Source of the DNA: the human T2T-CHM13v2.0 reference genome, Homo sapiens
NCBI RefSeq assembly: GCF_009914755.1
Contig: NC_060933.1
DNA: 64,000 bases
Strand: one strand, 5' to 3'
The position numbers and the translations under genes are program-made. Each line of letters begins with the position of its first letter. Position 1 is the stretch's first letter. The notes below the pieces were generated by a model. That model had not been told where the DNA came from. It saw only the letters and a program-made list of their open reading frames with translations, and made no database searches. Of the stretch, positions 720 through 38,189 are shown one piece after another.

Positions 720-3620
720 CCATTACGTTCCATTCCATTCCATTACTTTCGGGTTGATTCTATTCAACTCCCTTACTCTCCATTCCATTCCATTCCATTC
801 CTGTTGTTCCATTCCATTCCATTCCATTCCACTCCATTCCATTGCACTGGGGTTGATTCCATTCCATTTCATTCCATTCCATTCAATTCCGGATGATTCC
901 ATTCCATTGCATTCCGATCCATTTCATTCCCCTGCACTCGGGTTGATTCCATTCCATTCCATTCCATTCCATACCATTCCATTCGATTCCATTCCATTCC
1001 AATTCTTTCCATTCCATTCAATTCCGTACCATACCATTCCATTCCATACAATTCCATTCCATTCCATTCCATTCCATTCCATTCCATTCCGTTCCGTTCC
1101 ATTCCATTCCATTCCATTCTATTCCATTCCATTCCATTCCATTCTGTTCCGTTCCATTCCTTTCCATTCCATTCTATTCCATTCTATTCCATTCCATTGC
1201 AATCGAGTTGAATCTATTGCATTCCATTCCATTCCATTCCGGAAGACTACATTCCATTGCATTCCATTCCATTCCATTCCCCTGCACTCGCGTTGATTCC
1301 ATTCCATTCCATTCCATTCCATTCCATTCCATTCCATTCCATTCCATTCCTTTCCTTTCCATTCCATTGCATTCCATTCCATTCCGTTCCATTCCATTCC
1401 GTTCCGTTCCATTCCTTTCCATTCCATTCTATTCGGGTTAATTCCATTCCATTCCATTCGATTGCAATCGAGTTGATTCCATTCCATTCCATTCAATTCC
1501 ATTCCATTCCATTCCATTCCATTCCTTTCCATTCCATTACGGATGATTCAATTCCATTGCATTCCATTCCATTCCATTCCCTTGTACTCGGGTTGATTCC
1601 ATTCCATTGCATTCCAATCCATGCCATTCCACTCGTGTTGATTCCATTCTTTCCATTCCATTCAAGTTGAATCCATTCCATTGCATTCCATTCCATTCGA
1701 TTCCATTCGATTGCACTTGGGTTGATTCCATTCCATTGCATTCCATTCCATTCCATTCCATTGCATTCCATTCCATTCCGTTACATTCCATTTCATTACA
1801 TTCAGATTGATTCTTTTCAATTCCCTTACACTCCATTATATTCCAATCCATTCTGGTTGTTTCCATTCCATTCCATTCCATTTCACTCCATTCCATTGCA
1901 CTCGGGTTGATTCCATTCCATTCCATTCCATTGCATTCCATTATATTCCATTCCGGATGATTCCATTCCATTGCATTCCATTCCATTACATTCCCCTGCA
2001 CTTGGGTTGATTCCATTCCATTCCATTACATTACATTCCGTTCCATTCCATTCCATTCCATTCGGATTGATTCTATTCAATTCCCTTACACTCGATTACA
2101 TTCCATTCCATTCGGGTAGTTTCCATTCCATTCCATTCCATTCCTCTCCATTCCATTGCACTCGGGTGGATTCCATTCCATTCCATTCCATTCCATTCCA
2201 TTCCATTCCATTCCATTGTACTCGGGTTGATTCCATTCCATTGCATTCCATTCCTTTCCATTCCATTCCATTCCATTCCATTACATTCCGCTCCATTCCA
2301 TTACATTCGGATTGATTCTATTCAACTCCCTTACTCTCCATTACATTCCATTCCATTCGGGTTGTTCCATTCCATTCCATTCCATTCCACTCCATTCCAT
2401 TGCACTCGGGTTGATTCCATTCCATTCCATTCCATTCCATTCCATTCCATTCCATTCCATTCCATTCCGGATGATTGCAATCCATTGCATTCCGTTTCAT
2501 TACATTCCCCTGCACTCGGGTTGATTCCATTCCATTCCATTCGATTCCATTCCATTCCAATTCTTTCCATTCCATTCTATTCCGTACCATTCCATTCCAT
2601 TGCATTCCATTCCATTCCATTCAATTCCATTCCGTTCCATTCCATTCGATTACATTCGGGTTGATTCTATTCAACTCCCTTACTCTCCATTACATTCCAT
2701 TCCATTCCTGTTGTTCCATTCCATTCCACTCCATTCCATTGCACTGGGGTTGATTCCATTCCATTCCATTCCATTCCATTCAATTCTGGATGATTCCATT
2801 CCATTGCATTCTGATCCATTACATTCCCCTGCACTCGGGTTGATTCCATTCCATTCCATTCCATTCCATACCATTCCATTCGATTGCATTCCATTCCAAT
2901 TCTTTCCATTCCATTCAATTCCGTACCATTCCATTCCATTCCATACAATTCCATTCCATTCCATTCCATTCCATTCCGTTCCGTTCCGTTCCGTTCCATT
3001 CCATTCCATACCATTCTATTCCATTCCATTCCATTCCATTCCGTTCCGTTCCATTCCTTTCCATTCCATCCTATTCCATTCTATTCCATTCCATTGCAAT
3101 CGAGTTGAATCCATTGCATTCCATTCCATTCCATTCCATTCCATTCCATTCCGGAAGATTCCATTCCATTGCATTCCATTCCATTCCATTCCCCTGCACT
3201 CGCGCTGATTCCATTCCATTCCATTCCATTCCATTCCATTCCATTCCTTTCCTTTCCATTCCATTCCATTCCATTCCATTCCATTCCGTTCCGTTCCATT
3301 CCTTTCCATTCCTTTCCATTCCATTTTATTCGGGTTAATTCCATTCCATTCCATTCGATTGCAATCGAGTTGATTCCATTCCATTCCATTCCATTCCATT
3401 CCATTCCATTCCATTCCATTCCTTTCCATTCCATTACGGATGATTCAATTCCATTGCATTCCATTCCATTCCATTCCCTTGTACTCGGGTTGATTCCATT
3501 CCATTGCATTCCAATCCATGCCATTCCACTCGTGTTTATTCCATTCTTTCCATTCCATTCAAGTTGAATCCATTCCTTTGCAATCCATTCCATTCGATTC
3601 CATTCGATTGCACTCGGGTT
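720..3620 (+). repeat. Direct duplication with ~1.9 kb offset (~720-1700 / ~2640-3620)
   Basis: Private variants gcactggggttg (844/2741), ggatgattcaatt (1541/3438) and cttgtactc (1581/3478) are all offset by 1897; ctgttgttcc is at 801/2708. Confidence 0.8.
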
Positions 3621-36600: not shown

Positions 36601-38189
36601 CCATTCCATTCCATTCCCTTCCATTCCACTCTGGTTGATTCCATTCCTTTCCATTCCAATCGAATACATTCCCTCCTATTCCACTCGGATCGATTCCATT
36701 CCATTCCATTCCATTCCATTCCATTCCATTCCATTCCATTCCATTCCATTTCGTTCCATTCCATTCTATTCCGTACCATTCCATTCCATTCCATTCCTTT
36801 CCATTCCATTCCATTCCATTCCACTCTTGTTGATTCCATTCCTTTCCATTCCATTCGGTTTGAAGGCATTCCATTCCATTCAATTCCATTCCATTCCATT
36901 CCATTCCATTCCATTCCATTCCATTGCATTGTACTCGGGTTGATTCCATTCCATTCCATTCCATTCCATTCCATTCCATTCCATTCCATTCCATTCCGTT
37001 GCATTCCATTCCATTACATTCGGACTGATTCTATTCAACTCCCTTACTCTCCATTACATTCCATTCCATTCGGATTGTTCCATTCCATTCCATTCCATTC
37101 CACTCCATTCCATTGTACTCGGGTTGATTCCATTCCATTCCATTCCATACCATTCCATTCCATTCCATTCCATTCCATTCCGTTCCATTCCGTTCCATTC
37201 CATTCCATTCCATTCTATTCGGGTTAATTCCATTCCATTCCATTCCATTCCATTCTATTCCATTCCATTGCAATCGAGTTGAATCCATTGCATTTCATGC
37301 CATTCCATTCCATTCCATTCCATTCCGGAAGATTCCATTCCATTGCATTCCATACCATTCCATTTCCCTGCACTCGCGTTGATTCCATTCCATTCCATTC
37401 CATTCCATTCCATTCCGTTCCGTTCCGTTCCATTCCATTCTATTCCATTCCATTGCATTCCATTCCGTTCCGTTCCATTCCATTCCATTACATTCTATTT
37501 GGGTTAATTCCATTCCATTCCATTCGATTGCAATCGAGTTGATTCCATTCCATTCCATTCCATTCCATTCCATTCCATTCCATTCCATTCCTTTCCATTC
37601 CATTACGGATGATTCCATTCCATTGCATTCCATTCCATTCCATTCCCCTGTACTCGGGTTGATTCCATTCCATTCCATTCCAATCCATGCCATTCCACTC
37701 GTATTGATTCCATTCTTTCCATTCCATTCAAGTTGAATCCATTCCATTGCATTCCATTACATTCGATTCCATTCGATTGCACTCGGGTTGATTCCATTCC
37801 ATTGTATTCCATTCCATTCCATTCCATTCCATTCCATTCCATTCCATTCCGTTCCATTCCATTCCATTACATTCGGATTGATTCTATTCAATTCCCTTAC
37901 ACTCCATTACATTCCATTCCATTCGGGTAGTTTCCATTCCATTCCATTCCATTCCTCTCCATTCCATTGCACTCGGGTTGATTCCATTCCATTGCATTCC
38001 ATTCGATACCATTCAATTCCATTCCGTTCCATTCCATTCCATTACATTCGGATTGATTCTATTCAACTCCCTTACTCTCCATTACATTCGATTCCATTCG
38101 GGTTGTTCCATTCCATTCCATTCCATTCCTCTCCTTTCCATTGCACTCGGGTTGATTCCATTCCATTCCATTCCATTCCGGAAGATTCC
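3148..38189. promoter_or_regulatory. Dispersed perfect 3-unit heat-shock elements nTTCnnGAAnnTTCn (about 25 copies, span given)
   Basis: aTTCcgGAAgaTTCc at 3148, 4435, 6403, 7241, 8269, 8349, 9076, 10958, 11093, 12661, 20639, 23885, 24723, 26266 (GAAtaTTC), 28063, 28412, 29250, 30103, 31142, 31640, 32533, 34705, 35908, 37322 and 38175. The motif match is direct; function is inferred. Confidence 0.55.
10896..11165 (+). repeat. 135-bp tandem duplication containing an HSE word
   Basis: gtactcgggtttatt at 10916/11051 and cccctgcactcgccttgatt at 11001/11136. Confidence 0.85.

What the first reader, a model, noticed from the sequence alone, without database searches (positions are those of the whole stretch)
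3148..38189. One substitution converts a satellite word into perfect canonical HSEs, only in the outer dialect
Seen: plain GGAAT repeats give only head-to-tail nGAAn units. The word attccggaagattcc instead parses as aTTCcgGAAgaTTCc, three alternately inverted pentamers. I count about 25 intact copies in 3148-38189, one at 62551, and a truncated one at position 1. Broken copies are at ~1236, ~19731 and ~33206. The sister word attccggatgattcc (TTCcgGATgaTTC) differs by one base and is the only form I see in the ~21 kb inner domain. There is also an HSE-free gap at ~12.7-20.6 kb. Established: HSF1 trimers bind nTTCnnGAAnnTTCn, and HSF1 binds SatIII DNA to form nuclear stress bodies and drive SatIII lncRNA. 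Inference: these amplified words may be the actual high-affinity HSF1 anchors, which would make stress responsiveness sub-domain specific. Each contains a CpG within a CCGG/TCCGGA site, allowing methylation gating.
Basis: partly seen in the sequence, partly recalled or inferred. Interest (0 to 1): 0.8.

Follow-up and report, generated by a model that had tools for sequence, protein, structure and literature searches.

The report
Perfect heat-shock elements in HSat3
One repeated 15-base word in the chromosome 9 satellite forms a textbook binding site for the heat-shock factor HSF1; the sequence pattern is real, but HSF1 binding to motif-rich parts of this satellite is already published.

Summary
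The window (CHM13 chr9:62,372,001-62,436,000, HSat3) has 24 exact ATTCCGGAAGATTCC words and 26 perfect TTCnnGAAnnTTC sites; shuffles give 2.6. All 26 lie outside 38.3-60.3 kb. That 22-kb inner block has no inverted nGAAn pair at all and straddles a strand switch at about 45,186.

The word is a one-base derivative (T to A) of ATTCCGGATGATTCC. It sits in one module type of the repeat, linked to a CTCGCGTTG spacer variant.

Genome-wide it occurs 12,700 times, with none on chr1-8. Its density in 234 kb of chr9 samples accounts for nearly all copies. That is 17% of all perfect three-unit HSEs in the assembly.

A non-HSE sister word (ATTACGGATGATTCC) is about as abundant (11,273) and at least as well conserved. 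Amplification is therefore hitch-hiking and is no evidence of selection.

The classical pHuR98 interval, which HSF1 shifted weakly in vitro, holds no perfect HSE in 14 of 14 copies here.

Best reading: these words are the high-affinity HSF1 sites of 9q12, and GGAAT runs are weak sites.

A 2024-25 preprint already reports HSF1 motifs in HSat3 sub-regions and ChIP-seq that follows motif density. On chr9 the HSE dialect is the rule and HSE-free patches are the exception. Methylation gating is untested.

The parts
8..45182 (+). C-rich (ATTCC)n HSat3 array. G-rich SatIII RNA from this arm would run towards lower coordinates.
   Evidence: TRF gives period 5, 9048 copies, 73% matches. GC skew is about -0.6.
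45183..45188 (.). Strand switch (inversion junction) between the C-rich and G-rich arms.
   Evidence: Pentamer counts flip between 45,001 and 45,201. The sequence was read. TRF arrays end at 45182 and begin at 45189. It is not a clean palindrome.
45189..63974 (+). G-rich (AATGG)n HSat3 array, the same satellite in the opposite orientation.
   Evidence: TRF. GC skew is about +0.6.
1..12 (+). Truncated copy of the HSE word at the window edge.
   Evidence: The window starts CCGGAAGATTCC.
3148..12675 (+). First cluster of 10 exact HSE words, starting at 3148, 4435, 6403, 7241, 8269, 8349, 9076, 10958, 11093 and 12661.
12676..20638 (+). HSE-free gap of about 8 kb. It is still the outer dialect (TAC and GAT words are present) and holds one broken copy at 19731.
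20639..38189 (+). Second cluster of 15 perfect HSEs. 13 are exact words starting at 20639, 23885, 24723, 28063, 28412, 30103, 31142, 31640, 32533, 34705, 35908, 37322 and 38175. The other two are variants whose 13-base HSE cores start at 26267 (TTCCGGAATATTC) and 29251 (first base of the word is G).
62551..62565 (-). Single HSE word in the outer dialect on the inverted arm.
1236..1250 (+). Broken copy (ATTCCGGAAGACTAC). Other broken copies are at 19731-19745 and 33206-33220.
38301..60300 (.). Inner dialect of about 22 kb that straddles the strand switch. It has no GAA or TAC words, 0 perfect HSEs and 0 inverted nGAAn pairs. It has 6 GAT words and its own words, such as ATTCCGTACCATTCC and ATTCGGGTTGAATCC.
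3873..4033 (-). Example of a pHuR98-like interval of 160-161 bp, bounded by the published pHuR98 primers. It starts 31 bp after a TAC word and holds no perfect HSE.
   Evidence: Primers were read in Jolly 2004 and mapped. 14 intervals were found, and 0 of 14 hold a perfect HSE.
6403..7255 (+). Example of the roughly 840-bp sub-repeat that carries one GAA word and one TAC word. The GAA-to-GAA spacing of 838 bp recurs at 23885-24723 and 28412-29250.

Best explanation
ATTCCGGAAGATTCC is a derived one-base variant (T to A) of ATTCCGGATGATTCC, a diverged spacer word of the chr9 HSat3B5 repeat. It arose in one module type, marked by a linked CTCGCGTTG spacer. Array expansion then carried it passively to about 12,700 copies, roughly one per 2.2 kb of 9q12.

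Each copy is one canonical three-unit HSE: TTC-cg-GAA tail-to-tail, then GAA-ga-TTC head-to-head. These words are almost the only inverted nGAAn pairs in the array.

Inferred mechanism: heat-activated HSF1 trimers bind these words with high affinity and so seed nuclear stress bodies and SatIII transcription. The surrounding head-to-tail GGAAT runs give only weak secondary binding. Rare HSE-free patches such as 38.3-60.3 kb would be poorly bound. This patch lies upstream of the nearest HSE on both diverging arms, so it would also be poorly transcribed.

Shown here: the sequence facts, the copy numbers, the linkage to the spacer variant and the distribution. Inferred, not shown: HSF1 occupancy, relative affinity and the effect on transcription.
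For: Sequence and enrichment.
- The window has 26 perfect HSEs against 2.57 in shuffles, and 25 of the 26 share the core TTCCGGAAGATTC.
- Inverted pairs TTCnnGAA/GAAnnTTC number 28/26 in 1-38300, 0/0 in 38301-60300 and 1/1 in 60301-64000.

Genome-wide counts.
- The word occurs 12,700 times, and the first listed hit is at chr9:49.16 Mb. The output lists places in contig order, as searches show, so there are none on chr1-8.
- All perfect three-unit HSEs total 76,189, against 43,994 for the reversed-pattern control. This one word is 17% of them.
- 30 HSat3 samples from chr9 (234 kb) give 0.427 words per kb. Scaled to the 27.6-Mb array (size), that is about 11,800.

Single origin and direction of change.
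- 53 of 82 CGCG-type modules carry the exact word and 65 of 82 keep a perfect HSE. 0 of 64 CGGG-type and 0 of 95 TAC-type modules do.
- The T at word position 9 is shared by GAT and the canonical spacer ACTCGGGTTGATTCC. By parsimony, GAA is the derived form.

Fit to known HSF1 preferences. The pyrimidine-purine junction, the conserved G and the higher affinity of tail-to-tail pairs are described in Feng 2021 (passages).

Published support.
- HSF1 motifs occur in HSat3 sub-regions and heat-shock ChIP-seq is enriched where motif density is high.
- HSF1_HS enrichment on HSat3 is 3.12, against 1.09 unstressed.
- All 111 chr9 HSat3B5 segments shown are motif-enriched, with a median of 10.1.

pHuR98. 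HSF1 shifted pHuR98 only at higher protein amounts than a consensus HSE (Jolly 2002). The corresponding interval holds no perfect HSE in 14 of 14 copies here.
Against: - No HSF1 occupancy could be examined at word resolution. The published ChIP result is at region scale, and I saw only the text and legends, not the figure.
- HSF1 does bind DNA without the word. It shifts pHuR98 in vitro, and DBD crystal structures exist on head-to-tail SatIII repeats (cited in Feng 2021). The several million GGAAT units could therefore dominate by mass action.
- The HSE word is no better conserved than its non-HSE sisters. The top word accounts for 65% of its module type, against 67% and 77%. It is also no more amplified: 12,700 against 11,273 and 20,563.
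- Each site has only three units. From recall, strong promoters carry longer HSEs.
- The central CpG is probably methylated in heterochromatin, and its effect on HSF1 is unknown (searches found nothing).
- Stress bodies also form on chrY and chr15, where this word seems absent.
- The chr9 HSat3 array was listed among the anomalous regions of the assembly (Gershman preprint). Large-scale layout may therefore contain errors.
Confidence: 0.6

Rival explanations
1. Head-to-tail GGAAT runs are the real HSF1 substrate at 9q12. Binding is a mass-action effect of millions of weak nGAAn units, and the perfect word adds little.
For: HSF1 shifts pHuR98 in vitro and consensus HSE competes it off. pHuR98-like intervals here hold no perfect HSE in 14 of 14 copies. 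HSF1 and HSF2 DBD co-crystals on head-to-tail SatIII repeats are cited in Feng 2021. About 55% of sampled bases are exact ATTCC/GGAAT pentamers.
Against: pHuR98 needed more HSF1 than a consensus HSE (above 12.5 ng against above 3 ng). The preprint says ChIP-seq enrichment follows HSF1-motif density, whereas pentamer-based TEAD motifs are evenly spread. 65 of 199 non-chr9 HSat3 arrays have zero HSF1-motif enrichment although all are GGAAT-rich.
Confidence: 0.2
2. The word is a neutral passenger and is largely unoccupied in vivo. Heterochromatin or methylation of its central CpG would block HSF1, so that only a small subset, or the CpG-decayed copies, are used.
For: There is no excess conservation or amplification over the sister words. 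HSat3 is H3K9me3-enriched (Gershman preprint). CpG-loss derivatives that keep a perfect HSE exist: ATTCCAGAAGATTCC 431 and ATTCTGGAAGATTCC 295 genome-wide. At least 13 of the first 100 listed places for each are single-copy sites outside the array.
Against: HSF1 visibly loads on 9q12 within minutes of heat shock. ChIP-seq enrichment on HSat3 rises about threefold with heat shock. I found no evidence that CpG methylation blocks HSF1.
Confidence: 0.12
3. The substitution matters for another factor. GGAT to GGAA makes a CCGGAAG ETS-type core inside the palindrome TTCCGGAA, which also resembles a short-spacer STAT half-site pair.
For: The motif resemblance can be read from the word. The ETS and STAT consensus sequences are recalled and come from no call.
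Against: ENCODE ChIP enrichment on HSat3 is flat for ETS factors: GABPA 0.36-1.14 in 6 lines, ELK1 0.69-1.06 in 6 lines and ELF1 0.59-1.50 in 6 lines. STAT3 is 1.30 in 1 line. The preprint notes that ETS motifs are not enriched in HSat3 apart from ETV5-FOXO1. The base after CCGGAAG is A, not the T of the optimal ETS site as I recall it.
Confidence: 0.04

Closest known systems
HSF1-motif-rich sub-regions of HSat3 arrays (Franklin et al., bioRxiv 2024/25, PMC11526998)
   Same: It makes the same claim at region scale: HSF1 motifs are unevenly placed in HSat3, and heat-shock ChIP-seq follows motif density. Its table lists chr9 HSat3B5 segments with HSF1-motif enrichment of about 10.
   Different: In the parts I read, it does not name the word, its one-base origin, its copy number or the roughly 20-kb HSE-free patches inside chr9. 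On chr9 its segment-level values are uniform.
Canonical HSEs in chrY SatIII (DYZ1, Yq12; Penin et al. 2021, PMC7889540)
   Same: These are perfect HSEs interspersed in a SatIII repeat unit (four per 3,564 bp). HSF1 ChIP is positive, and the locus is a primary stress-body site.
   Different: It is a different chromosome and subfamily and presumably uses different words. Density is about 1.1 per kb there, against about 0.5 per kb on chr9.
pHuR98 (D9Z3), the classical 9q12 SatIII probe bound by HSF1 in vitro (Jolly 2002, 2004)
   Same: It comes from the same array and the same roughly 840-bp sub-repeat. The sense primer matches exactly at 14 sites in the window.
   Different: The interval holds no perfect HSE and no inverted pair. 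It lies 290-2885 bp from the nearest GAA word. This fits its weaker shift in EMSA.
Promoter HSEs of HSP genes such as HSPA1A
   Same: They share the architecture of alternating inverted nGAAn units read by one HSF1 trimer.
   Different: Here there are three units only, no known core promoter beside them, thousands of copies, and a heterochromatin setting.
TEAD sites (GGAATG) in HSat3 (same preprint)
   Same: The satellite acts as a megabase-scale platform for a transcription factor.
   Different: TEAD motifs come from the pentamer itself and are evenly spread. The HSE needs one inverted pentamer, so it is confined to one module type.

Membership tests
Canonical trimeric heat shock element (HSE) | At least three contiguous nGAAn units in alternating orientation | tested here: met
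   aTTCcgGAAgaTTCc occurs as 26 perfect sites. The flanking pentamers are ATTCC, so there are exactly three alternating units.
Canonical trimeric heat shock element (HSE) | The G of every GAA (C of every TTC) is intact, and the TTC/GAA junction is a pyrimidine-purine step | tested here: met
   The word has a CG junction, a G before GAA and an A before both TTC units. The preferences are as described in Feng 2021.
Canonical trimeric heat shock element (HSE) | Occupied by HSF1 on heat shock | not testable with these tools
   Only published region-scale ChIP-seq is available. No reads are held here.
Canonical trimeric heat shock element (HSE) | Drives heat-inducible transcription of neighbouring DNA | not testable with these tools
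   SatIII induction is known for 9q12 as a whole. No start-site data exist for these words.
HSat3 subfamily B5 (chr9) | (CATTC)n-derived array with CAACCCGAGT-type spacers, on chr9q12 | tested here: met
   TRF finds period-5 arrays and ACTCGGGTTG spacers run throughout. The hub gives the chr9 coordinates. chr9 arrays are labelled HSat3B5 (235 columns) and HSat3B3 (5 columns) in the preprint's table. I did not run the subfamily k-mer classifier.
ETS class I site | CCGGAAGT core with ETS-factor occupancy | tested here: not met
   CCGGAAG is present but is followed by A. ETS ChIP enrichment on HSat3 is about 1 or lower, apart from ELF1 at 1.50 in one line. The consensus is recalled, not taken from a call.
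STAT GAS element | TTCnnnGAA, a palindrome with a 3-base spacer | tested here: not met
   The spacer is 2 bases (TTCcgGAA). The consensus is recalled.

The most novel reading that the evidence does not exclude
One T-to-A change in a spacer word, carried to about 12,700 copies, is what makes 9q12 the primary nuclear-stress-body locus. On this reading, the copy number of this single word sets how much HSF1 a person's chromosome 9 captures. HSE-free patches and strand switches would then mark the boundaries of SatIII transcription units, with G-rich transcripts diverging from a silent zone at junctions such as 45,186. If the word is human-specific, it would date the origin of the 9q12 stress body.
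Probability: 0.2. Interest if true: 0.6.

Novelty: already known. Interest (0 to 1): 0.3.

Why it matters
HSF1 loading on 9q12 is the textbook case of a transcription factor awakening heterochromatin. A 2022 review still called the number of HSF1 sites there unknown and the HSEs an unpublished observation.

This check adds the following:
- a concrete site;
- a count for one complete genome: about 12,700 copies, or 17% of all perfect three-unit HSEs;
- a genealogy: one substitution in one module;
- the point that the classical probe pHuR98 lacks the site.

It also provides natural controls for settling whether inverted HSEs or head-to-tail pentamers hold HSF1. These are the GAT and TAC sister words and HSE-free patches of equal pentamer density.

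The principle itself, motif-rich sub-regions bound by HSF1, is already in a preprint. The gain is therefore resolution, not a new concept.

Tried and rejected
- Palindrome test around the strand switch. 32-mer pairs spread over p+q = 88-96 kb instead of one diagonal, so this is not a simple inverted duplication.
- Search for a single higher-order period. Autocorrelation peaks are scattered (2.36, 4.44, 4.92, 6.81 kb and more) with no clean period. TRF, capped at period 500, reports only period 5.
- An inverted-repeat scan failed on a mistyped reference and was not repeated.
- First module anchor. Allowing 2 mismatches pooled all three module types, so that result was discarded in favour of exact spacer diagnostics.
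- The antisense pHuR98 primer gives 0 matches at 2 mismatches or fewer, because the genomic copies carry extra C residues. It was mapped with indels instead. The pHuR98 clone sequence itself was not available, so the interval is inferred from the primers.
- The primer table in the supplement of Valgardsdottir 2008 could not be read.
- The exact words were sought in paper text. There were 2 unrelated hits only. That library excludes most subscription journals, and figures are not held.
- HSF1 methylation sensitivity. Two searches and one paper gave nothing usable.
- Array-wide map. Only 244 kb of chr9 could be fetched (20 x 10 kb from 48.7-52.1 Mb and 11 x 4 kb from 54-76 Mb), of which 234 kb in 30 samples is HSat3. 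The size and frequency of HSE-free patches therefore stay rough.
- Whether chr10-22, X and Y hold the word was not listed by the tool. Its near-absence there is inferred from the density arithmetic alone.
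Full report
**What is there.** The window is HSat3 throughout. It consists of a C-rich (ATTCC)n array at 8-45182 and the same satellite in the opposite orientation at 45189-63974. 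Shuffles expect 0.01.

Scanning for any perfect three-unit HSE (TTCnnGAAnnTTC, both strands) gives 26 sites, against 2.57 +/- 1.49 in shuffles. 25 of the 26 share the core TTCCGGAAGATTC, and one is TTCCGGAATATTC.

The smaller details are all correct. There is a truncated copy at base 1. Broken copies are at 1236, 19731 and 33206. An 8-kb HSE-free gap runs from 12.7 to 20.6 kb.

**Anatomy.** The word heads a conserved module of about 60 bases: the word, then ATTCCATTGCATTCC(ATTCC)2ATT, then a CCCCTGCACTCG-type spacer. There are three main module types.
- GAA words are followed by CTCGCGTTG.
- GAT words (ATTCCGGATGATTCC, 40 copies) are mostly followed by CTCGGGTTG.
- TAC words (ATTACGGATGATTCC, 24 copies) are followed by CTGTACTCGGGTTG.

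I pooled the window with 31 systematically spaced chr9 samples (308 kb, one of them not HSat3). Of 82 CGCG-type modules, 53 carry the exact GAA word and 65 keep a perfect HSE. None of 64 CGGG-type and none of 95 TAC-type modules do. GAA is thus tightly linked to a second variant about 47 bases away, as expected for a single origin followed by amplification.

All these words are diverged copies of the canonical spacer ACTCGGGTTGATTCC. GAT shares its T at position 9 with that spacer. Parsimony therefore makes GAA the derived form.

GAA and TAC modules recur together in a sub-repeat of about 840 bp, with GAA-to-GAA spacings of 838 bp at three places. I found no single higher-order period.

**The two dialects.** From about 38.3 to 60.3 kb the word repertoire changes. 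There are no GAA or TAC words. ATTCCGTACCATTCC, ATTCGGGTTGAATCC and ATTCGGGTTGTTTCC appear instead, with six GAT words. This 22-kb block straddles the strand switch at about 45,186. The outer dialect resumes, inverted, at about 60.3 kb, with a GAA word at 62551.

Even two-unit inverted pairs (TTCnnGAA/GAAnnTTC) number 28/26 in 1-38300 and 0/0 in the inner block. The inner block offers HSF1 only head-to-tail units.

One correction is needed. The sister word does not mark the inner domain, because 29 of its 40 copies are interleaved with GAA words in the outer domain.

**Beyond the window.** In the whole assembly the GAA word occurs 12,700 times. Places are listed in contig order, as searches show by starting with chr1. 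The first GAA hit is at chr9:49.16 Mb, so chr1-8 have none.

The tool does not list later chromosomes. However, 30 HSat3 samples from chr9 (234 kb spanning 48.7-76 Mb) hold 100 words, or 0.427 per kb. Scaled to the 27.6-Mb array (size from the Altemose preprint), that is about 11,800. Chr9 therefore accounts for nearly all copies.

All perfect three-unit HSEs in the genome number 76,189, against 43,994 for the reversed-pattern control. This single word is 17% of the total.

25 of the 30 samples contain the word. The five that do not are three at the proximal edge (48.7-49.25 Mb), one internal (51.40 Mb) and one at 76.0 Mb. On chr9 the HSE-bearing dialect is therefore the rule, and patches like the window's inner block are exceptions.

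**Is amplification a sign of function?** No. The TAC word creates no HSE and rides in the same sub-repeat (Spearman 0.85 with GAA across 19 ten-kb samples). It has 11,273 copies, and GAT has 20,563. The HSE word is also no better preserved within its module type (65%) than GAT (67%) or TAC (77%).

**Would HSF1 bind it?** I read passages of Feng et al. 2021. An HSE needs at least three alternating nGAAn units, and the G is the most conserved base. The TTC/GAA junction is usually a pyrimidine-purine step. The base before GAA and the A before TTC make auxiliary contacts. Tail-to-tail pairs bind better than head-to-head pairs. The word A-TTC-CG-GAA-GA-TTC-C meets each of these points. In GAT the third base of the middle unit is lost, which leaves an 8-of-9 site.

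I could not test occupancy here.

**What is already published.**
- Jolly 2002 (passages) showed that HSF1 shifts the 158-bp chr9 clone pHuR98. It needed more protein than a consensus HSE did.
- A 2022 review by Vourc'h and colleagues (passages) says putative HSEs at 9q12 are an unpublished observation and that the number of sites is unknown.
- Penin 2021 (passages) found four perfect HSEs in the 3,564-bp chrY unit.
- Franklin et al. (preprint; passages, legends and two supplementary tables) report three things. HSF1 motifs lie in sub-regions of HSat3 arrays. Heat-shock HSF1 ChIP-seq is enriched where motif density is high. HSF1 enrichment on HSat3 rises from 1.09 to 3.12 with heat shock.
- In the Franklin table, all 111 chr9 HSat3B5 segments shown have HSF1-motif enrichment (median 10.1). 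65 of 199 arrays on other chromosomes have none.

The exact word was not found in any searchable paper text.

**A link to the classical probe.** The published pHuR98 sense primer (Jolly 2004) matches exactly at 14 sites, all in the outer-left domain. Together with the antisense primer, mapped with indels, it bounds a 160-161-bp interval that starts 31 bp after a TAC word. This interval holds no perfect HSE in 14 of 14 copies. The nearest GAA word is 290-2885 bp away.

This fits a two-tier picture: weak binding to HSE-less SatIII DNA and strong sites nearby. It also shows that HSF1 can bind without the word, which is the main rival reading.

**Methylation.** I found no data on whether 5mC there affects HSF1.

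Copies that have lost the CpG by transition still form perfect HSEs. ATTCCAGAAGATTCC occurs 431 times and ATTCTGGAAGATTCC 295 times genome-wide, and a few of these are single-copy sites elsewhere. They would escape any such gate.

The same substitution also creates an ETS-like CCGGAAG core. ETS factors show no enrichment on HSat3 in the preprint's screen.

**Transcription geometry (inference).** Heat shock induces mainly the G-rich strand. Such RNA would run leftward from the C-rich arm and rightward from the G-rich arm, so transcripts diverge from 45,186. The HSE-free block lies upstream of the nearest HSE on both sides, which predicts a quiet zone there.

**Caveats.**
- The chr9 HSat3 array was listed among the anomalous regions of the assembly, so large-scale layout may contain errors.
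- My chr9 sample covers under 1% of the array.
The tables I read came from the PMC copy.

**Verdict.** What this check adds is the word's identity, origin, copy number and natural controls.

Noticed in passing
window 45183-45188: A strand switch lies inside the HSat3 array, and the 22-kb inner dialect straddles it asymmetrically (about 6.9 kb on the left, about 15.1 kb on the right). It is not a clean palindrome. G-rich SatIII RNA would diverge from this point.
   Followed up: partly
window 264-424, 3464-3624, 3873-4033 and 11 more: Intervals bounded by the published pHuR98 primers (160-161 bp) occur 14 times, only in the outer-left domain. None holds a perfect HSE. 10 of the 14 contain the published 20-base SatIII FISH probe.
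   Followed up: yes
window 8269/8349 and 10958/11093: These are local tandem duplications of the HSE module, which put two perfect HSEs 80 bp and 135 bp apart.
   Followed up: no
whole genome: Perfect three-unit HSE counts are strand-asymmetric: 31,067 forward against 45,122 reverse. They exceed the reversed-pattern control by about 32,000, and only 12,700 of that excess is this word. Another one-orientation repeat must supply the rest. The chrY SatIII unit with four HSEs is a candidate, but I did not check it.
   Followed up: no
L012 (chr9:49,240,001-49,250,000) and L024 (chr9:51,400,001-51,410,000): Two 10-kb samples with zero GAA and zero TAC words hold the most ATTCCGTACCATTCC words (8 and 11). 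This suggests that the window's inner dialect recurs elsewhere in the array. Across all 19 ten-kb samples the correlation is weak (Spearman -0.14).
   Followed up: partly
L009 and L028 (chr9:48.70 Mb and 52.12 Mb); L029-L039: Two of 19 ten-kb samples contain a strand switch. Orientation also differs between samples 2 Mb apart (5 C-rich and 6 G-rich among the 11). This is in line with the 235 chr9 HSat3B5 segments in the preprint's table.
   Followed up: no
L010 (chr9:48,880,001-48,890,000): This sample is not HSat3 (8 ATTCC pentamers in 10 kb). It is an interruption near the proximal edge of the array, and I did not identify it.
   Followed up: no
window, every GAA word: The word contains the 8-base palindrome TTCCGGAA and an ETS-like CCGGAAG core. 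Both are created or completed by the same T-to-A change.
   Followed up: partly
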